This document shows positions 1 through 5,800 of a DNA stretch of 6,043 bases, in pieces. The stretch is from a virus (Duplodnaviria > Heunggongvirae > Uroviricota > Caudoviricetes). The DNA lies in the IMG/VR virus record IMGVR_UViG_2737471819_000031, positions 1 to 6,043 of that record. One strand, 5' to 3'. A model generated the notes under the pieces. That model searched no databases. It worked only from the letters and a program-made list of their open reading frames with translations, and was not told the DNA's origin. The number at the start of each line of letters is the position of its first letter. Position 1 is the stretch's first letter. Made by a program: the position numbers and the translations under genes.

Positions 1-201
1 ATGACTACGACTATTGATAAAAATCAATGGTGTGGACAATTCAAGCGATGCAATGGATGCAAGCTGCAATCGGAATGCATGGTTAAGCCTGAAGAAATGT
101 TTCCTGTAATGGAAGATGGGAAATATGTCGATAAATGGGCAATACGAACGACGGCAATGATTGCCAGAGAACTTGGTAAACAGAACTACAAGGCTGCCTG
201 A
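1..201 (+). CDS. ral: Ral-like restriction-alleviation protein (66 aa)
   Basis: Complete 201-nt ORF starting at window position 1. The protein (MTTTIDKNQWCGQFKRCNGCKLQSEC...) matches my recollection of phage lambda Ral in sequence and length, has four Cys in the N-terminal third, and lies upstream of a cIII-like gene as in lambda. Identity is from memory and not verified. Confidence 0.55.
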   Translation: MTTTIDKNQWCGQFKRCNGCKLQSECMVKPEEMFPVMEDGKYVDKWAIRTTAMIARELGKQNYKAA

Positions 202-218
202 TGGTGGCCTTTATTTTT
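190..218 (+). terminator. Intrinsic terminator with the ral stop codon in the hairpin loop
   Basis: RNA stem AAGGCUGCC / GGUGGCCUU (9 bp including two G-U pairs), loop UGAU containing the TGA stop at 199..201, followed by UAUUUUUG. Confidence 0.5.
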
Positions 219-259
219 GTCCGTAAATAATTTCATGCTTATTACAATCAAGGTGATAT

Positions 260-709
260 ATGGAAGAACAAGCAAACAAGATTCTCGTAGAACTACTGCA
301 AAAAGCCAGCAATGGAATAGATGCTGCTGTTTCATTTAGCCAAGCACAGATTCCTGATGTTGTTCATCAGTTGCTGCTATGGAATATGGTTGACAGTCTG
401 ATTAAAACATTAATAGCCATTCTAACAATCCCACTGGTTTTCTGGTTTATGAAGAAGCAGTGCCAAAGAGTTGAGACAGGTAAAATCGGTGATGAAGGAT
501 ACTCATGGGAGAGGGGAAATCCCAAATACAGGCCGACAATGGTTTGGGATAGCAAAGGAGATGTTAACCTTCTTATCATGCCATTGGTTGGAGTTTTGAC
601 TCTGTGGGGGATTTTTATTATTGGTGTAGTAACCAATATGACTTGGTTAAAAATTTGGCTGGCCCCAAAACTTTACCTTATCGAATATGCAGCATCATTG
701 GTTAAGTAA
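260..709 (+). CDS. Small two-TM inner-membrane protein of unknown function (149 aa)
   Basis: ORF with SD-like AAGGTG 4-5 nt upstream of the ATG. Two strongly hydrophobic segments (LIKTLIAILTIPLVFWFM and LLIMPLVGVLTLWGIFIIGVVT) flank a charged ~40-aa loop. Terminators lie on both sides. Confidence 0.6.
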   Translation: MEEQANKILVELLQKASNGIDAAVSFSQAQIPDVVHQLLLWNMVDSLIKTLIAILTIPLVFWFMKKQCQRVETGKIGDEGYSWERGNPKYRPTMVWDSKGDVNLLIMPLVGVLTLWGIFIIGVVTNMTWLKIWLAPKLYLIEYAASLVK

Positions 710-713
710 TTTC

Positions 714-740
714 AGGCCGCATAGTCGGCCTTTATTTTTG
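714..740 (+). terminator. Intrinsic terminator
   Basis: Perfect 6-bp stem AGGCCG / CGGCCT with 6-nt loop, followed by TTATTTTTGG, 5 nt after the stop of ORF 260..709. Confidence 0.65.
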
Positions 741-768
741 GCATAAACAACAGAATAAATACTGCACT

Positions 769-796
769 GTGTATTCATTCCAACGAGTGAATACAC
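769..796 (+). repeat. Perfect 9-bp inverted repeat (GTGTATTCA-N10-TGAATACAC)
   Basis: Arms are exact reverse complements with a 10-nt spacer, in the non-coding stretch between the membrane-protein terminator and the cIII-like gene. Could be a protein-binding site or RNA hairpin; function unknown. Confidence 0.45.
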
Positions 797-858
797 GGAG
801 CAATGTCGCTCGTAACTAAACAGGAGCCGACTTGTTCTGATTATTGGAAATCTTCTTT

Positions 859-884
859 GCCCTCCAGTGTGAGGGCCTTTTTAT
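859..884 (+). terminator. Intrinsic terminator
   Basis: 6-bp stem GCCCTC / GAGGGC with 6-nt loop followed by CTTTTTATAT; only the + strand gives a U-tract. Confidence 0.5.
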
Positions 885-948
885 ATGCATACCAATAATG
901 CTTCACCAGAGGCATTTTCGTTATGCAATCAAACAGAAGGAGCATCCT

Positions 949-1119
949 ATGCAACAGTTCGCTATTGCAGGGGCGGCATCGGTTCGCCCTTTCAACCCGA
1001 TTTTATCGGTACAGCATTCACGAAAAAACATTTTAACCGGAGCAGACTTTAAACAACCAAGAATGAAAAGTTTGCTCGAAAAGCTTTGGGATATTTTGAA
1101 ACAACAAGGCCGTCCATGA
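949..1119 (+). CDS. cIII: CIII-like protein (56 aa; FtsH-inhibitor family in lambda)
   Basis: Strong SD AAGGAG 6 nt upstream of ATG 949. N-terminus MQQFAIAG resembles lambda CIII MQYAIAG as I recall it; C-terminal SLLEKLWDILKQQG resembles the CIII amphipathic region; size and position fit. The longer six-frame ORF from 844 lacks an SD and spans the terminator at 859..884. Confidence 0.5.
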   Translation: MQQFAIAGAASVRPFNPILSVQHSRKNILTGADFKQPRMKSLLEKLWDILKQQGRP

Positions 1120-2859: not shown

Positions 2860-3371
2860 AACAAATGACACTAATTGAGATGGATGGATTTCTGAAAGGT
2901 AAATGCATCCCATGTGATTTAAAGGTTAACGAAACAAATGCTGAATATCTGGTGCGTAAATTTGCTGAAGCGGAGGCCAAGATTTTGGCTCTGTCCGAAG
3001 ACCAACAGAAAGCGATTGAGTCAATTAAGCAGGCTGATGCAGCTGTTAAGTTGGCACACGAGAAGTTTTCGGCGCTGGCGGCGGAGAATGCGGGGCTGAA
3101 GTCTGGCGCTATGGACGAAATCAAGGTTATCAACCGTGGAGGTCAGGCATATTGCGTAAAAGATGGAGTGCAAGTTAATCCCATGTATGCAAGAGGGTGG
3201 AATGACTATCGCGCAAAGTCTCTGCAATCAGACACCCCAGCCACCGATGCTTTCCTGGCTGATGTACGGGCACAGGGGGTAGAGATGTTTGCTGACCATC
3301 TGTTGTGCCCAGACCTTGATGACACTATCCGTGACTTTGCTGCCCAGCTTCGCAAAGGAGTGCGGTCATGA
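2856..3371 (+). CDS. Hypothetical protein with central coiled-coil region (171 aa)
   Basis: ATG 2856 overlaps the upstream stop (ATGA); GGAG 9 nt upstream. Ala/Glu/Lys-rich predicted helical segment ([47 protein letters not shown]). Six-frame start at 2838 is also possible. Confidence 0.5.
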
Positions 3372-4045
3372 GCAACATCGACAAACGCGCATTACGTCAT
3401 AGCGCAGAAAGCATAATCGGCATTCTGGAAAACATTGCCGGGTTCGAACCATCTGATATCGACGGCGACTCTGTAGAGCTCCGCTTTGAAACTGAGGACG
3501 GTTTCGATACTGGTTGTGACGTTAGCATTGTTGACCAGTGCCAGAAAACCGCTGATGTAGTTCGGGCGATGCTGGATGAGCTGGAAAGAAACCAGCAGTA
3601 CATCAAATCCCGCGACCAGGAGAACGAGGATATTGCGCTAACGGTAGGGAAGCTGCGTGTTGAGCTGGAAGCCGCAGAGAACAACCTTATTGATAGTGAG
3701 TGCCATGTTGCTGAACTGGAAGAAGCGCTACGCGATAAGCAGGCGTTACTTGAAGCATCAGAGAAGCGCATAGCAGAACTGGAAGCTCGGGAAATAAAAC
3801 CAGCCAAAGGTGAAGTTCTTGTCGTTGTTTCTGGTTTTACTGGTTGCGGAAAAAGCGCCATTGCCGGGGAAATAGAAATCGCGATGAAGGCTATTGGTGT
3901 ACCGGTTCAGTGGACTAATGGCGATGCGGAAAAGCGCATGACAGGAGCTGACTGGCTGACAGCGATTGAGATGTACAAACCAACAGTGCGCATCGTGGAA
4001 GTTAATGTGCCACGCGCCGCTGGCATTCGCATCAAAGGAGAGTGA
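3368..4045 (+). CDS. Ead/Ea22-like coiled-coil protein (225 aa)
   Basis: ATGA overlap with the upstream stop; SD AAGGAG 7 nt upstream. N-terminal [10 protein letters not shown]..., a long heptad-like acidic coiled coil ending ...EKRIAELEAREIK and C-terminus ...AAGIRIKGE resemble Ea22-like proteins of enterobacterial lambdoid prophages as I recall them. Synteny fits (between recombination genes and xis). Confidence 0.5.
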   Translation: MSNIDKRALRHSAESIIGILENIAGFEPSDIDGDSVELRFETEDGFDTGCDVSIVDQCQKTADVVRAMLDELERNQQYIKSRDQENEDIALTVGKLRVELEAAENNLIDSECHVAELEEALRDKQALLEASEKRIAELEAREIKPAKGEVLVVVSGFTGCGKSAIAGEIEIAMKAIGVPVQWTNGDAEKRMTGADWLTAIEMYKPTVRIVEVNVPRAAGIRIKGE

Positions 4046-4046
4046 T

Positions 4047-4547
4047 ATGACCACTATTACCAAAGAGCGACTGCTGACAATCAGGCAGTGGCGCGAAACA
4101 TACGGACCTGGTAGCAACGTTGTACTGCCAGCAGAAGAAGCGGAAGAACTGGCACGGATTGCTCTGGCATCGCTGGAAGCAGAACCGGTGGCGTGGAAGG
4201 TAACTTTCACGCAAATTGACCGTGAATATAACACGTTCACTGGTATGTATTCTGACAAAGCAGAAGTCGAACGGTGGGTGCGGCTGCATAAAGCATGTAA
4301 TTTTCTGGCAGATATAACACCGCTTTATACCGCCAAGCCAGTGCCGGTAACTCCGGATGGTTGGATAAGCTGTAGTGAGCGAATGCCGGATAAGTTAATT
4401 CCGGTAATGGTCATGTATGAAGACGGTGAGATGTGGTCTGCAATGTGGAATGGCAATCGCTGGGATGATGGCACCGAATATCCGGATCCGCACTCAGTTA
4501 CGCACTGGTGTGAAATGCCAGCAGCACCGCAGCAGGAGGTGAAGTGA
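4047..4547 (+). CDS. DUF551-like phage protein (166 aa)
   Basis: SD AAGGAG 6 nt upstream of ATG 4047, which lies 1 nt after the upstream stop. C-terminal region WISCSERMPDKLIPVMV...WDDGTEYPDPHSVTHWCEMPAAP matches the DUF551 signature (W-I-S-x-x-D-R-L-P ... V-T-H-W-M-P-L-P) common in the ead region of lambdoid prophages. Confidence 0.6.
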   Translation: MTTITKERLLTIRQWRETYGPGSNVVLPAEEAEELARIALASLEAEPVAWKVTFTQIDREYNTFTGMYSDKAEVERWVRLHKACNFLADITPLYTAKPVPVTPDGWISCSERMPDKLIPVMVMYEDGEMWSAMWNGNRWDDGTEYPDPHSVTHWCEMPAAPQQEVK

Positions 4548-4831
4548 TGGACTCCTTCGCGAAATATACGATTATTGACTGGATAGCATTCCTTCAGGTT
4601 TTGCTCATCTGGTTTTATATGGCTTACAGGAGTGGGCAGTGGATTGTCAGTGTAGCCTGTAGCAAGGGATGGCGTTGGTGGAACCGAAAGAATAAAAAAG
4701 CGCTGGCCTTGGATTCGTTTTACGAAGCATTCAATCTTAACAGCCTTCAGCCTGGTTCTGTCATTGTTGTCACCACTCAAAGCGGCATGACGATACAAAT
4801 TCACAAGCCAAAGGAGGAAGGTCGTGGCTAA
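4547..4831 (+). CDS. Hypothetical small protein with N-terminal hydrophobic helix (94 aa)
   Basis: ATG 4547 shares one base with the DUF551 stop (TGATG); SD AGGAGG 8 nt upstream (six-frame start is GTG 4544). N-terminal IIDWIAFLQVLLIWFYMAY is TM-like, followed by a Trp/Arg-rich stretch (KGWRWWNRKNKK). Confidence 0.5.
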   Translation: MDSFAKYTIIDWIAFLQVLLIWFYMAYRSGQWIVSVACSKGWRWWNRKNKKALALDSFYEAFNLNSLQPGSVIVVTTQSGMTIQIHKPKEEGRG

Positions 4832-5108
4832 CCTGCAACTTGCCGTAAAAGGTGAATACTTCGATGCCATGATTCGCAGAGAGAAAACGGAAGAGTATCG
4901 CCTGTGTAATGACTATTGGAATAAGCGCCTCATTAACCGTAAGTATGACCGCCTGATTATCACAAAGGGATATCCGAAGCGCGACGACTCCAGCCGCAGA
5001 ATTGATGTTCCGTATGACGGATATGAAATCAAGACAATCACACATCCCCACTTCGGCGATAAACCGGTAAAGGTATACGCGATAAAGGTGAATATCGGCA
5101 ATGAATAA
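4824..5108 (+). CDS. ASCH/PUA-like small protein (94 aa), GTG start
   Basis: GTG 4824 is preceded by a near-perfect SD AAGGAGG at 6-nt spacing and overlaps the upstream gene by 8 nt. N-terminal KGEYFDAMIRREKTEEYRL fits the ASCH pattern (compare E. coli YqfB FQDDILAGRKTITIRD as I recall it). Family call is tentative. Confidence 0.5.
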   Translation: MANLQLAVKGEYFDAMIRREKTEEYRLCNDYWNKRLINRKYDRLIITKGYPKRDDSSRRIDVPYDGYEIKTITHPHFGDKPVKVYAIKVNIGNE

Positions 5109-5112
5109 CAAT

Positions 5113-5137
5113 CCTCGCACTCGCGGGGATTTCTTTT
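5113..5137 (+). terminator. Intrinsic terminator ending the coupled gene run
   Basis: RNA stem CCUCGC / GCGGGG (6 bp, one G-U) with loop ACUC, followed by AUUUCUUUUAUC, 5 nt after the stop at 5108. Confidence 0.45.
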
Positions 5138-5180
5138 ATCTGAACTCGCTACGGCGGGTTTTGCTTTATGGAGATGATAA

Positions 5181-5348
5181 ATGCACTTCCGAGTCACAGG
5201 TGAATGGAATGGAGAGCCATTCAACAGAGTTATCGAAGCGGAGAACATCAACGACTGCTACGACCACTGGATGATATGGGCGCAGATAGCACATGCAGAC
5301 GTAACCAATATTCGAATTGAAGAACTGAAAGAACACCAAGCCGCCTGA
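5181..5348 (+). CDS. Hypothetical small protein (55 aa), absent from the six-frame track
   Basis: ATG 5181 with GGAG 7 nt upstream; translation MHFRVTGEWNGEPFNRVIEAENINDCYDHWMIWAQIAHADVTNIRIEELKEHQAA. Its TGA stop sits in the loop of the terminator at 5341..5361. The antisense six-frame ORF 5166..5372 has no such signals. Confidence 0.5.
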   Translation: MHFRVTGEWNGEPFNRVIEAENINDCYDHWMIWAQIAHADVTNIRIEELKEHQAA

Positions 5349-5361
5349 TGGCGGTTTTTTT
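5341..5361 (+). terminator. Intrinsic terminator with a stop codon in the hairpin loop
   Basis: Stem CCGCC / GGCGG with loop TGAT (TGA stop at 5346..5348), followed by a 7-T tract. Confidence 0.65.
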
Positions 5362-5375
5362 ATTGGAGACAAGAA

Positions 5376-5720
5376 ATGTCAGATTTGGCTATGAAGGTTT
5401 TGGAATGGCAATCGACTGGCGATGTCGGCATCAGTAGCGCAACTCTTGCCTCAATCGCATGTGGACTGAAAAAGAATATCTATGGTCATCACTTCGGCGC
5501 TCCACATGACGCAGCAGATTTCCGACGATGCGTTGCACTTGTTGAGCAGATTCCAGAAATCAGAGATTCATTCGACAAGGTTGCAAAGCGCGTTCCGGCA
5601 TTCAAAGGAATCCTCAACGAATGGGATTCACTCGTTGCTCTGTTGAAGTCTGAAATGAAGACGTACGGGAACAAAGCACCAGAGACTTACAGAAGAATCA
5701 GCGAGCTACGCAAGGACTAA
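5376..5720 (+). CDS. Hypothetical protein (114 aa) at the ea8.5 position upstream of xis
   Basis: ATG 5376 with GGAG 7 nt upstream, directly after the terminator T-tract. Soluble, probably helical protein, not recognised. Followed by two tandem terminators. Confidence 0.55.
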   Translation: MSDLAMKVLEWQSTGDVGISSATLASIACGLKKNIYGHHFGAPHDAADFRRCVALVEQIPEIRDSFDKVAKRVPAFKGILNEWDSLVALLKSEMKTYGNKAPETYRRISELRKD

Positions 5721-5723
5721 CCC

Positions 5724-5752
5724 GCCTCACACTCGATGAGGCATTTTCATTT
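5724..5752 (+). terminator. Intrinsic terminator
   Basis: Perfect 6-bp stem GCCTCA / TGAGGC with 7-nt loop, followed by ATTTTCATTT, 3 nt after the stop at 5720. Confidence 0.5.
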
Positions 5753-5777
5753 ATCAAGATATCCAGACCTACCATCG

Positions 5778-5800
5778 CCGCATCAATGCGGTTTTTTATT
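5778..5800 (+). terminator. Intrinsic terminator (second of a tandem pair)
   Basis: Stem CCGCA / TGCGG with loop TCAA, followed by TTTTTTATT. Confidence 0.55.

What the first reader, a model, noticed from the sequence alone, without database searches (positions are those of the whole stretch)
188..741. Terminator-bracketed two-TM membrane protein in the ea10 slot between ral and cIII
ORF 260..709 (149 aa) has two strongly hydrophobic segments separated by a charged ~40-aa loop. Hairpin plus T-tract terminators lie immediately upstream (190..218) and downstream (714..740), and their 3' tails share the 14-nt string GGCCTTTATTTTTG. In lambda the interval between ral and cIII holds ea10, a soluble protein as I recall; here a membrane protein occupies it, which looks like a moron-type swap in a known accessory hotspot. 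Small membrane proteins in this part of lambdoid genomes are often superinfection-exclusion or abortive-infection factors, but I do not recognise this one. It is my top candidate for an undescribed defence or exclusion function.
Basis: partly seen in the sequence, partly recalled or inferred. Interest (0 to 1): 0.6.

Follow-up and report, generated by a model that had tools for sequence, protein, structure and literature searches.

The report
Mobile phage membrane-protein gene cassette
A real, horizontally shuffled gene-plus-terminator cassette in the early-left operon of a lambda-like E. coli prophage encodes a two-helix inner-membrane protein from a very large phage family that nobody has characterised; it is a reasonable but unproven candidate for an envelope-level exclusion or lysis-related function.

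Summary
ORF 260-709 is a purifying-selected gene (dN/dS 0.17) for a 149-aa protein with two hydrophobic helices. Terminator-like hairpins lie at 190-211 and 714-731, and their tails share GGCCTTTATTTTTG (206-219, 727-740).

- It is not an ea10 swap. Lambda, HK140 and mEp506 lack exactly 220-740. Lambda ea10 sits at a different junction about 140 nt downstream, and 23 of 80 relatives carry both genes.
- The upstream terminator belongs to ral. Only the downstream one travels with the gene.
- No promoter was found. In other phages the gene starts 9 nt after N, so here it is an N-antiterminated early lytic gene, not a classic prophage-expressed moron.

The protein belongs to PHROG 3054 (at least 1,883 clusters at 50% identity). 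The family occurs in temperate and virulent phages of Proteobacteria and has no Pfam, PADLOC, PDB or literature assignment. Its N- and C-terminal helices are conserved and predicted periplasmic, while the TM hairpin and loop vary and are swapped as a block within the gene. In 13 of 37 species-level prophages a homologue directly follows the lysis genes.

Function is open. I favour an Imm-like envelope or exclusion role (about 0.3), with a lysis accessory role close behind (about 0.25).

The parts
1..201 (+). ral (restriction alleviation) gene, the upstream neighbour in the pL operon
   Evidence: The 66-aa ORF is about 97% identical at DNA level to lambda and HK140 ral. PGAP names it an antirestriction Ral family protein in an E. 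coli genome with the same layout.
190..219 (+). ral's own intrinsic-terminator-like hairpin (190-211) plus T tail; the ral stop codon TGA (199-201) lies in the loop; contains copy 1 of the 14-mer (206-219)
   Evidence: It is present at the empty sites of lambda, HK140 and mEp506, so it is not part of the inserted unit. The same 'Ala-Ala-stop in the loop' design ends other genes.
220..740 (+). The mobile cassette: leader and SD, ORF149, and its own terminator (521 bp), absent from empty-site phages
   Evidence: The alignments show a precise indel bounded by the 14-nt direct repeat. GC is 39% against 46% for the window.
251..256 (+). Shine-Dalgarno-like AGGTGA, 3 nt before the ATG
   Evidence: Read directly from the sequence. 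It is conserved (AGGTGA or AGGGGA) in relatives whose upstream flanks are unrelated.
260..709 (+). ORF149, a PHROG 3054 two-TM membrane protein
   Evidence: The AF2 model has mean pLDDT 88.7.
260..385 (+). Codons 1-42: conserved acidic N-terminal helix (family motif F..AQIPDV..QLL.W), predicted periplasmic
   Evidence: Conservation. dN/dS is 0.07. The family mean net charge is -4. This stretch is 94% identical at DNA level to Sf6 gene 34.
386..451 (+). Codons 43-64: TM1
   Evidence: Hydropathy peak of 2.0. It continues the helix that spans residues 2-73 in the model.
452..565 (+). Codons 65-102: variable K/R-rich loop, predicted cytoplasmic
   Evidence: K/R counts near the TM ends are higher on the loop side than on the termini side in 92 of 101 family members and never lower. 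Loop length ranges from 21 to 69 aa across the family.
566..637 (+). Codons 103-126: TM2
   Evidence: Hydropathy peak of 2.45. dN/dS is 0.75. The centre of the gene (386-630) is only 42% identical at DNA level to the Sf6 allele, although the flanks are 94-100% identical.
638..706 (+). Codons 127-149: conserved aromatic amphipathic C-terminal helices (WLKIW.APKLYLIEYAA; Y143 invariant)
   Evidence: dN/dS is 0.06. The model has helices at residues 128-134 and 136-148.
714..740 (+). The cassette's own terminator-like hairpin (714-731) plus T tail; copy 2 of the 14-mer (727-740)
   Evidence: The same hairpin follows the gene in nearly all of the 80 close relatives, and 54 of 80 have the exact 14-mer.
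741..885 (+). Highly conserved non-coding block ('bsq4 boundary sequence' plus tL2A in the Sf6 record): a 14-bp perfect hairpin at 767-798 and a terminator hairpin at 859-876. ORF149 lies before it; lambda ea10 lies after it.
   Evidence: The block differs from lambda at only two positions over 741-868. It averages 97% identity in 74 of 80 relatives. It folds to -47.8 kcal/mol, z -6.1. There is no Rfam match.
897..916 (+). A further terminator-like hairpin just upstream of the cIII-like gene; with the two above it forms a tL2-type terminator cluster
   Evidence: It is conserved in lambda and HK140.
949..1119 (+). cIII-like gene, the downstream neighbour
   Evidence: ORF. Its HK140 counterpart is annotated 'CIII anti-termination'.

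Best explanation
What it is (shown). Window 220-740 is a self-contained cassette that moves horizontally. It consists of an SD, a 149-codon gene and the gene's own intrinsic terminator. It is inserted immediately after the ral terminator in the pL (early-left) operon of a lambdoid or P22-like E. coli prophage. It probably arrived by recombination between look-alike terminator tails, the 'boundary sequences'.

When it is expressed (inferred). No promoter was found, so it should be transcribed from pL by N-antiterminated polymerase. That makes it an early lytic gene that is silent in the repressed prophage.

What it encodes (shown, topology inferred). The product is a PHROG 3054 inner-membrane protein with two TM helices. 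By the positive-inside rule the K/R-rich variable loop is cytoplasmic. The two conserved parts then sit together on the periplasmic face next to the membrane: the acidic N-terminal helix and the aromatic C-terminal amphipathic helix.

How it most likely works (inferred, low confidence). This conserved periplasmic collar acts on a conserved host envelope component at the outer face of the inner membrane. It changes the infected cell's envelope so that later-arriving phage DNA cannot enter. This resembles T4 Imm in function but not in ancestry. The hairpin and loop serve mainly as an exchangeable anchor.

Confidence. About 0.9 for the cassette, gene and family statements, about 0.65 for the topology and about 0.3 for the exclusion mechanism. 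The overall figure given is for the mechanism.
For: Cassette and mobility:
- The precise 521-bp indel is missing from lambda, HK140 and mEp506 and is bounded by the 14-nt repeat.
- The downstream terminator travels with the gene.
- Upstream genes vary: N-like, ral and several unrelated small genes.
- The gene is present in 239 of 5,426 E. coli genomes.

Real gene:
- PHROG 3054, E 5e-64; 1,883 cluster representatives; dN/dS 0.17.

Early expression:
- No promoter-like site upstream.
- The gene starts 9 nt after N-like genes in at least 10 relatives.
- Homologues lie among early or replication-type genes of virulent N4-like phages, and among unannotated small genes in phi92.

Topology:
- The family N-tail has net charge -4 and K/R density 0.05, against 0.17 for the loop.
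- K/R counts near the TM ends are higher on the loop side in 92 of 101 members and never lower.

Conserved N and C termini, variable centre:
-.

Envelope or competition role:
- It is a small accessory inner-membrane protein restricted to phages of diderm Proteobacteria.
- It sits in classic moron positions elsewhere: alone on the opposite strand inside structural operons in Vibrio, Pseudomonas and Rahnella phages.
- It lies among anti-host genes here: ral, cIII and kil.
Against: - There is no sequence or profile similarity to any known exclusion protein: P22 SieA and SieB, T4 Imm and Sp.
- There is no PADLOC hit.
- Structure searches give only generic helical hairpins.
- In 13 of 37 species-level prophages the homologue follows the spanin gene directly on the same strand, sometimes overlapping it. 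That implies late expression there, which suits a lysis role better than exclusion.
- A target conserved from Vibrio to Achromobacter is unusual for exclusion proteins, which tend to be specific to phage groups (own knowledge).
- The topology rests on a charge rule only.
- The promoter scan is a crude consensus scan.
- No experiment exists for any family member.
Confidence: 0.3

Rival explanations
1. Lysis-associated accessory factor. The protein works with holin, endolysin and spanin at the envelope, for example by setting lysis timing or helping envelope disruption through its periplasmic collar. It would be harmless when made early from pL.
For: - In 13 of 37 species-level loci the homologue lies directly downstream of endolysin and/or Rz-like spanin genes on the same strand.
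- In 10 of these an Rz-like match ends within about 135 nt of the homologue's start, and in Proteus and Providencia the two genes overlap.
- The lysis cassettes involved are of at least four different types: Phage_holin_3_1 with GH24; holin_8 and 3_7 with M15; holin_3_2 with M15; phrog_873 endolysin.
- The adjacency persists down to 30% identity between homologues.
- The family is restricted to diderm hosts.
- There is precedent for unsuspected extra lysis factors: Lcc6 of LambdaSo (10.1101/2024.01.23.576932) and LysZ (10.1101/2025.06.24.661397).
Against: - In this window and in all 80 close relatives the gene is in the early-left operon, far from lysis genes.
- In N4-like, phi92 and Vibrio phages it is not next to annotated lysis genes.
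- Most lambdoid phages lyse without it.
- The slot after the spanin gene and before the terminase genes is itself a known accessory-gene site. Lambda bor is an example (own knowledge), and KilA-N-like genes share the slot here.
- Holins and spanins are too diverse to be the target of such a conserved motif.
Confidence: 0.25
2. One reading: a prophage-expressed defence or abortive-infection moron that protects the lysogen against other phages.
For: - Presence is variable.
- The gene has its own terminator.
- In other phages it has the classic moron layout, alone on the opposite strand inside late operons and flanked by hairpins.
- Small membrane proteins are common effectors of exclusion or abortive infection (own knowledge).
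Against: - No promoter-like site lies between the ral terminator and the start codon.
- The gene is fused 9 nt behind N in relatives, so it should be repressed with pL in a lysogen.
- Homologues are common in strictly virulent phages.
- There is no PADLOC match.
- Strong conservation of the extramembrane parts across very different hosts is not typical of arms-race effectors.
Confidence: 0.15
3. Counter-defence or host-takeover factor. This would be an early membrane protein that neutralises a membrane-located host or prophage system or inhibits a host inner-membrane protein. Analogies are T4 rII against Rex, or P22 gene 17, which lies in the same ral-c3 interval.
For: - The gene lies among pL anti-host genes: ral, cIII and kil here, and anti-RecBCD genes in relatives.
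- P22 carries gene 17 ('allows growth on phage Fels2 lysogen') in the same interval.
- Expression is early, and the family occurs in virulent phages.
Against: - There is no homology to gp17.
- No partner or target can be inferred.
- The post-spanin and opposite-strand placements in other phages are not explained.
Confidence: 0.15
4. Not a functional gene: a chance ORF between two terminators.
For: None beyond its small size and lack of annotation.
Against: - Full-length PHROG match.
- 1,883 cluster-level homologues.
- dN/dS of 0.17, and about 0.06 in the conserved ends.
- Confident AF2 model.
Confidence: 0.01

Closest known systems
Shigella phage Sf6 gene 34 protein (AAQ12224) and the rest of PHROG 3054 (also phi92 gp220, HF4s g00037 'TM helix-containing protein', Bas60 bas60_0108)
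   Same: These are true homologues. Sf6 gene 34 sits in the same place after ral, with the same flanks (96-100% DNA identity) and the same terminator, boundary block and tL2A downstream. The two-TM architecture and the N- and C-terminal motifs are shared across the family.
   Different: None of them has a known function. The Sf6 allele has an unrelated central TM1-loop-TM2 segment (42% DNA identity, 49% protein identity overall, 140 aa). phi92 and the N4-like phages are virulent and carry the gene in other genomic contexts.
T4 Imm (immunity to superinfection), an early small inner-membrane protein
   Same: Both are small, hydrophobic, early-expressed phage inner-membrane proteins that are dispensable for growth. 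Imm serves as the model for the favoured mechanism, a block of DNA entry at the inner membrane (annotation; own knowledge).
   Different: There is no detectable homology (hhalign probability 0.3%). Imm has 83 aa and lacks the long conserved N- and C-terminal helices. Function has not been tested for ORF149.
Lambdoid morons (lambda bor and lom, HK97 gp15; Juhala et al. 2000, own knowledge)
   Same: It is a single accessory gene with its own terminator, present or absent between otherwise collinear phages. In Vibrio, Pseudomonas and Rahnella phages, family members are lone opposite-strand insertions in structural operons.
   Different: Here no promoter was found and the gene is embedded in the pL operon in the operon's own orientation. 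It would therefore be expressed in lytic growth rather than from the prophage.
Lambda tL2 terminator cluster and 'boundary sequences' of lambdoid mosaics (Luk & Szybalski 1983 and Clark et al. 2001, own knowledge; Sf6 record features bsq4 and tL2A)
   Same: The hairpins at 190-211, 714-731, 859-876 and 897-916 and the conserved block 741-885 correspond to this known terminator and linker region between ral and cIII. Insertion at look-alike terminator tails fits the boundary-sequence model.
   Different: The cassette adds one more terminator to the cluster. The exact 14-nt repeat at its two junctions is specific to this insertion.
Lambda Ea10
   Same: Ea10 is also an optional single-gene-plus-terminator cassette in the ral-cIII interval.
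   Different: The protein is unrelated and the insertion point differs, lying after rather than before the conserved block. The two genes often occur together (23 of 80).
Newly found extra lysis factors (LambdaSo Lcc6, Mu releasin, corynephage LysZ)
   Same: These are small phage membrane proteins next to lysis genes whose role was missed for decades. They are the analogy for the lysis rival.
   Different: No homology is claimed or tested. Lcc6 has 65 aa, and LysZ is from phages of Corynebacteriales. ORF149 itself is not in a lysis cassette.

Membership tests
PHROG 3054 (uncharacterised phage membrane proteins) | Full-length match to the family profile | tested here: met
   E 4.8e-64, residues 1-149 against profile positions 1-137 of 137. 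All 101 aligned relatives hit the same PHROG.
PHROG 3054 (uncharacterised phage membrane proteins) | Two hydrophobic helices plus the conserved N-terminal (AQIPDV..QLL.W) and C-terminal (APKLYLIEYAA) motifs | tested here: met
   98 of 101 members have two segments with a Kyte-Doolittle score of at least 1.5.
Moron (autonomous accessory transcription unit in a phage genome) | Present or absent between otherwise collinear relatives | tested here: met
   Lambda, HK140 and mEp506 lack exactly 220-740. 239 of 5,426 E. coli genomes carry the gene.
Moron (autonomous accessory transcription unit in a phage genome) | Own terminator | tested here: met
   Hairpin 714-731 plus T tail. The same hairpin follows the gene in nearly all 80 relatives, and 54 have the exact 14-mer.
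Moron (autonomous accessory transcription unit in a phage genome) | Own promoter | tested here: inconclusive
   The consensus scan finds no sigma-70-like site upstream. Relatives start 9 nt after N. A weak or non-consensus promoter cannot be excluded.
Moron (autonomous accessory transcription unit in a phage genome) | Expression from the repressed prophage | not testable with these tools
   This needs RNA-seq or 5'-RACE of a lysogen.
Lambda Ea10 | Sequence homology | tested here: not met
   hhalign probability 0.4%.
Lambda Ea10 | Same insertion point, as mutually exclusive alternatives | tested here: not met
   The junctions differ, and both genes are present in 23 of 80 relatives.
Known superinfection-exclusion proteins (P22 SieA, P22/lambda SieB, T4 Imm, T4 Sp) | Sequence or profile homology | tested here: not met
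   hhalign probabilities of 0.1-0.35%.
Known superinfection-exclusion proteins (P22 SieA, P22/lambda SieB, T4 Imm, T4 Sp) | Blocks DNA entry or development of a superinfecting phage | not testable with these tools
   This needs expression and phage-challenge assays.
P22 gp17 (occupant of the same ral-c3 interval) | Sequence homology | tested here: not met
   hhalign probability 0.1%.
Catalogued anti-phage defence systems (PADLOC-DB 2.0) | Match to any defence-protein model | tested here: not met
   0 families at E up to 1.
Holins | Match to a Pfam holin family | tested here: not met
   No Pfam hit for the protein. The table of the 25 most-matched families for the 101 relatives contains no holin family.
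Holins | Position in a lysis cassette with the endolysin | tested here: not met
   Here the gene is in the pL operon. In the 13 of 37 relatives that are near lysis genes, it lies after the spanin gene and the cassette already has its own holin(s).
Intrinsic (rho-independent) terminators | G+C-rich hairpin followed by a T tract | tested here: met
   190-211 and 714-731.
Intrinsic (rho-independent) terminators | Termination in vivo and read-through by N-modified polymerase | not testable with these tools
   Inferred from homology of the region to the lambda tL2 cluster and from the Sf6 annotation.

The most novel reading that the evidence does not exclude
PHROG 3054 is a previously unrecognised and very widespread class of phage envelope effector. 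A membrane-anchored periplasmic 'collar' would be built from a conserved acidic N-terminal helix and an aromatic C-terminal helix. It would target a host envelope component conserved across Gamma- and Betaproteobacteria. It would act either as a broad, Imm-unrelated superinfection-exclusion device or as a fourth component of Gram-negative phage lysis. The interchangeable TM-hairpin and loop cassette would tune specificity.
Probability: 0.3. Interest if true: 0.65.

Novelty: new member of a known kind. Interest (0 to 1): 0.4.

Why it matters
The exact protein is already in databases as 'hypothetical' (WP_024239865, seen on 282 contigs), and the cassette architecture fits the known mosaic and boundary-sequence picture of lambdoid phages. 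As an element it is therefore ordinary.

What makes it worth a bench test is the family. It has at least 1,883 clusters at 50% identity. It occurs in temperate and virulent phages of very different types. Its juxtamembrane motif is strikingly conserved. The gene moves between early operons, the position after the spanin gene, and opposite-strand moron sites.

A single-gene, plasmid-expressible protein with natural presence/absence pairs (Sf6, HF4s and Gally against HK140 and lambda) is an easy route to a function for a large block of phage 'dark matter'. The result would bear either on superinfection exclusion or on the still incomplete parts list of Gram-negative lysis.

Tried and rejected
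Family and structure searches that gave nothing:
- Pfam, NCBIfam and PADLOC scans of the protein: no hits.
- Pfam scan of 101 relatives: only scattered chance hits to unrelated membrane families.
- Profile search of PDB sequences: nothing meaningful.
- Foldseek against PDB: no match. Against BFVD: only uncharacterised phage proteins.
- The afdb50 library was not available.
- hhalign of the family profile against P22 SieA, SieB and gp17, T4 Imm and Sp, and lambda Ea10: all negative.

Literature and names:
- Searches on Sf6 gene 34, phrog_3054, lambdoid exclusion, early membrane proteins and lysis-cassette extras found no characterisation.
- The phage L, epsilon34 and Hf4s genome papers do not discuss the gene.
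- Source names of cluster members are only 'hypothetical', 'Phage transmembrane protein' or 'TMhelix containing protein'.

Other checks:
- Rfam scan of the window: no hits.
- The idea that the gene replaces ea10 was rejected on alignment and co-occurrence.
- The idea that both terminators belong to the cassette was rejected.
- Base composition gives no clear sign of foreign origin: 39% GC against 42% for ral.
- No conserved partner gene was seen across contexts.
Full report
**Setting**

The window is the early-left (pL) operon of a lambdoid or P22-like prophage, read in the direction of transcription. The gene order is:
- ral (1-201)
- ORF149 (260-709)
- a cIII-like gene (949-1119)
- a kil-like gene (1195-1365)
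- an ERF-type recombinase (1376-1981)
- an SSB-like gene
- Ea22-like, DUF551-like and ASCH-like genes
- an excisionase-like gene at the end

A complete E. coli genome (OkiPb01680) has the same order: repressor, N, Ral, this gene (100% identical over 220-713, 'hypothetical protein' WP_024239865), cIII-like, kil-like, ERF. Stx2a phages Stx2_EH2086 and Stx2_EH2085 match 1-942 at 98.8%.

- ORF149 has an AGGTGA Shine-Dalgarno sequence.
- It has two hydrophobic segments, with Kyte-Doolittle peaks of 2.0 at aa 46-64 and 2.45 at aa 106-124.
- The loop between them is charged, with 8 K/R and 6 D/E.
- Hairpin-plus-T-tract sites lie at 190-211 (-13.9 kcal/mol) and 714-731 (-9.7 kcal/mol).
- The string GGCCTTTATTTTTG occurs at 206-219 and 727-740. 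None of 200 shuffles gave two copies.
- Lambda does carry ea10 between ral and cIII.

**The ORF is a real gene under selection**

- It matches PHROG 3054 ('unknown function') over its full length, E 5e-64.
- It has 516 close relatives in the 5.8-billion-protein collection, all unnamed.
- It has 1,883 relatives among 50%-identity cluster representatives at E up to 1e-3.
- Among 54 distinct 149-codon alleles dN/dS is 0.17. By segment it is 0.07 in the N-terminal 42 codons, 0.06 in the C-terminal 23, 0.20 in the loop and 0.75 in TM2.

**What the inserted unit is**

Alignment with phages that lack the gene is decisive.
- In lambda, HK140 and mEp506 the ral hairpin and its tail (...GGCCTTTATTTTTG) run straight into GCATAAA(C/T)AACAGAATAAA, which is window position 741 onward.
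- Window 220-740 (521 bp) is therefore a precise indel bounded by the 14-nt direct repeat.
- The upstream hairpin is ral's own terminator. The ral stop codon sits in its loop.
- Only the downstream hairpin belongs to the cassette. Among 80 close relatives from IMG/VR the same downstream hairpin follows the gene almost always (exact 14-mer in 54), whereas the exact upstream 14-mer is present in only 16.
- The upstream neighbour varies. It is ral in 14 loci, N-like antiterminators with only a 9-nt gap in at least 10, and several unrelated small genes in others (HF4s; Gally).

**It is not an ea10 swap**

- Downstream of the cassette lies a 145-nt block (741-885) that differs from lambda and HK140 at only two positions over 741-868.
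- The Sf6 record annotates this block as 'bsq4 boundary sequence' plus terminator tL2A.
- ORF149 is inserted before this block. Lambda ea10 is inserted after it, following the hairpin at 859-876.
- In 23 of 80 relatives ea10 follows ORF149 by 196 nt.
- The two proteins are unrelated.
- The ral-cIII interval is thus a string of optional gene-plus-terminator cassettes separated by look-alike terminators. P22 has orf78, orf87 and gene 17 there, and Sf6 has genes 34 and 33.
- Several different genes end with the same design: ral, lambda ea10, Gally gp31 and the window's own ORF 5181-5348. Each ends in AAG GCY GCC TGA (Ala-Ala-stop) placed in or at the edge of a hairpin loop.
- This fits the boundary-sequence model of Clark et al. 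2001 and the tL2 cluster of Luk and Szybalski 1983 (own knowledge). Recombination between similar terminator tails is the likely way the cassette moves. This last step is inference.

**Expression**

- The consensus scan finds only two promoter-like sites in the whole window and none near 220-259.
- By eye the leader has no credible -35/-10 pair upstream of the SD.
- Taken with the N-adjacent arrangement in relatives, the gene should be transcribed from pL by N-modified polymerase that reads through the ral terminator.
- That makes it a delayed-early lytic gene that is silent in a repressed prophage. This is inferred, not shown.

**The protein**

- AlphaFold2 with a 101-sequence alignment gives a confident model, mean pLDDT 88.7. 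It has one long helix (residues 2-73) that runs from the N terminus through TM1, a less confident loop, TM2 (106-125) and two short C-terminal helices (128-134, 136-148).
- Across the family the conserved parts are the N-terminal 45 residues and the C-terminal 23. Nearly invariant residues include F26, P32, V34, Q37, L38, L39 and W41 in the first, and I132, A135, P136, K137, L140, E142 and Y143 (invariant) in the second. The TM helices and the loop are variable.
- The N-tail is acidic, with family mean net charge -4 and K/R density 0.05. The loop is K/R-rich at 0.17.
- K/R counts within 12 residues of the TM ends are higher on the loop side in 92 of 101 members and never lower.
- By the positive-inside rule (established knowledge) the loop is cytoplasmic. 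The two conserved segments then lie together on the periplasmic face next to the membrane.
- This is a prediction from charge only.

**Mosaic structure within the gene**

- The Sf6 allele (gene 34) is 94% identical at DNA level over the first 126 nt and 96-100% in both flanks.
- It is only 42% identical, which means unalignable, over the TM1-loop-TM2 centre.
- Many E. coli genomes match the gene only at its two ends.
- The centre therefore behaves as an exchangeable cassette between conserved ends.

**Distribution**

tblastn finds the family in 177 phage records.
- Temperate P22-like and lambda-like phages: Sf6, CUS-3, HK633, SPN9CC, HF4s, Gally.
- Strictly virulent phages: phi92 and its relatives, N4-like Salmonella and Vibrio phages, and many other Vibrio phages, plus Pseudomonas and Rheinheimera phages. 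Among the N4-like phages the gene lies among early or replication-type genes. In phi92 it lies among unannotated small genes upstream of an ATPase and an endonuclease.
- In Vibrio phage 120E34-1 it is a lone opposite-strand gene between tail-completion and head-closure genes.
- In Pseudomonas lundensis and Rahnella prophages it is a lone opposite-strand gene between the portal gene and the gene upstream of it, which is probably the terminase. It is flanked there by hairpin-plus-T sites.

A one-genome-per-species scan found 37 loci in Enterobacterales, Pseudomonas and Betaproteobacteria, plus a few MAGs assigned to other taxa.
- In 13 of them the homologue follows endolysin and/or Rz-like spanin genes on the same strand.
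- In 10 an Rz-like match ends within about 135 nt of the homologue's start, and in two the genes overlap.
- The lysis cassettes involved have four different holin and endolysin combinations.

In E. coli the gene is accessory. It occurs in 239 of 5,426 complete genomes, whereas 4,326 match some part of the window.

**What it is not**

- No Pfam, NCBIfam or PADLOC model matches.
- No PDB sequence or fold matches beyond generic helical hairpins.
- BFVD returns only uncharacterised phage proteins.
- The family profile does not match P22 SieA, SieB or gp17, T4 Imm or Sp, or lambda Ea10.
- I found no paper that characterises any member.

**Mechanism**

The shown facts constrain the answer to an autonomous, mobile, accessory inner-membrane protein of phages that infect diderm Proteobacteria. 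Its constrained parts are extramembrane juxtamembrane helices, probably periplasmic. The target is therefore likely a conserved host envelope feature rather than a fast-evolving phage protein.

I favour an envelope-modifying, exclusion-type role during infection, at about 0.3. This resembles T4 Imm in function but not in ancestry. The reasons are:
- Small accessory inner-membrane proteins outside lysis cassettes most often turn out to be exclusion factors (own knowledge).
- The gene is early here and in virulent phages.
- It occupies moron sites elsewhere.

The strongest rival, at about 0.25, is a lysis-associated accessory role. It rests on the recurrent position after the spanin gene, and recent work shows that extra lysis factors are still being found. 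Against it, the post-spanin slot is itself a common accessory-gene site. KilA-N-like genes share it in these same loci.

Each gets about 0.15.

**Verdict**

The 'ea10 slot' and 'terminator-bracketed moron' descriptions need correction. The defence or exclusion idea remains an untested but reasonable hypothesis. As an element it is a new member of a known kind, an accessory cassette in the lambdoid pL mosaic. Its protein family is large, conserved and entirely uncharacterised, which gives it moderate interest.

Noticed in passing
window 741-885: This non-coding block differs from lambda (between ral and ea10) and HK140 at only two positions over 741-868. It averages about 97% identity in 74 of 80 relatives, although synonymous divergence in the adjacent gene is about 0.25. 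It folds very stably (-47.8 kcal/mol, z -6.1), with a perfect 14-bp hairpin at 767-798 and a terminator hairpin at 859-876. There is no Rfam match. It also holds a 31-codon ORF (803-898) with a GGAG SD. The Sf6 record calls it 'bsq4 boundary sequence' plus tL2A. Whether it is an RNA element, an RNase III site, a small gene or only a recombination linker is open.
   Followed up: partly
window 5337-5366 (end of ORF 5181-5348); also window 190-219; L012 (lambda) ea10 end; L003 (Gally) gp31 end: Unrelated small genes share the same 3' design. The last codons, AAG/CAA GCY GCC TGA (Ala-Ala-stop), form the left arm of a terminator hairpin, with the stop codon in or at the edge of the loop. This looks like a reusable gene-end and terminator linker, and a likely substrate for cassette shuffling.
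   Followed up: partly
window 386-637 compared with L001 (Sf6) 2886-3110: Mosaic structure within the gene. The central TM1-loop-TM2 segment of ORF149 and of Sf6 gene 34 cannot be aligned at DNA level (42% identity), while the first 126 nt and both flanks are 94-100% identical. Many E. coli genomes match only the two ends of the gene.
   Followed up: partly
L102, L111-L116, L119, L121, L122, L128, L131, L133 (prophages of Pantoea, Buttiauxella, Dryocola, Pseudocitrobacter, Proteus, Yersinia, Providencia, Xenorhabdus): Homologues of ORF149 lie directly after the Rz-like spanin gene of four different kinds of lysis cassette, sometimes overlapping its stop codon. In some loci a KilA-N-like gene shares the slot.
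   Followed up: partly
L094 (Vibrio phage 120E34-1) 3001-3405; L109 (Pseudomonas lundensis) and L110 (Rahnella) about 5001-5500: Homologues occur as lone opposite-strand genes inside structural-gene operons. In the Vibrio phage the gene lies between tail-completion and head-closure genes. In the other two it lies between the portal gene and the probable terminase gene. Hairpin-plus-T sites flank it. This is the classic moron layout, unlike the arrangement in the window.
   Followed up: partly
window 4544-4831: A 95-aa ORF in the ea region has a hydrophobic N-terminal segment (MMDSFAKYTIIDWIAFLQVLLIWFYMAY...). It is another small candidate membrane protein in the same operon and was not examined.
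   Followed up: no
window 5110-5161, 5724-5742, 5777-5792: There are further terminator-like hairpins between small genes near the xis end. The window has 17 terminator-like sites against 6.4 expected from shuffles. This suggests that many pL accessory genes are separate gene-plus-terminator units.
   Followed up: no
L080 about 3000-4182 (IMG/VR contig 2541047816_000006): In one relative the ORF149 match starts only at residue 21. Immediately upstream is an ORF whose sequence looks like an IstB-type IS helper ATPase (my reading of the sequence, not tested). This would be an IS insertion into the gene.
   Followed up: no
L135 (E. coli OkiPb01680) 921-1861: A HigB-family toxin gene and an HTH gene lie between the prophage repressor and N. 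This is a separate accessory insertion next to the immunity region of a prophage with the same N-ral-ORF149 layout as the window.
   Followed up: no
NZ_CP130669.1 (E. coli SM107, 111-kb plasmid) 35927-36419: A 95%-identical copy of the gene lies on a 111-kb plasmid record, possibly a phage-plasmid.
   Followed up: no
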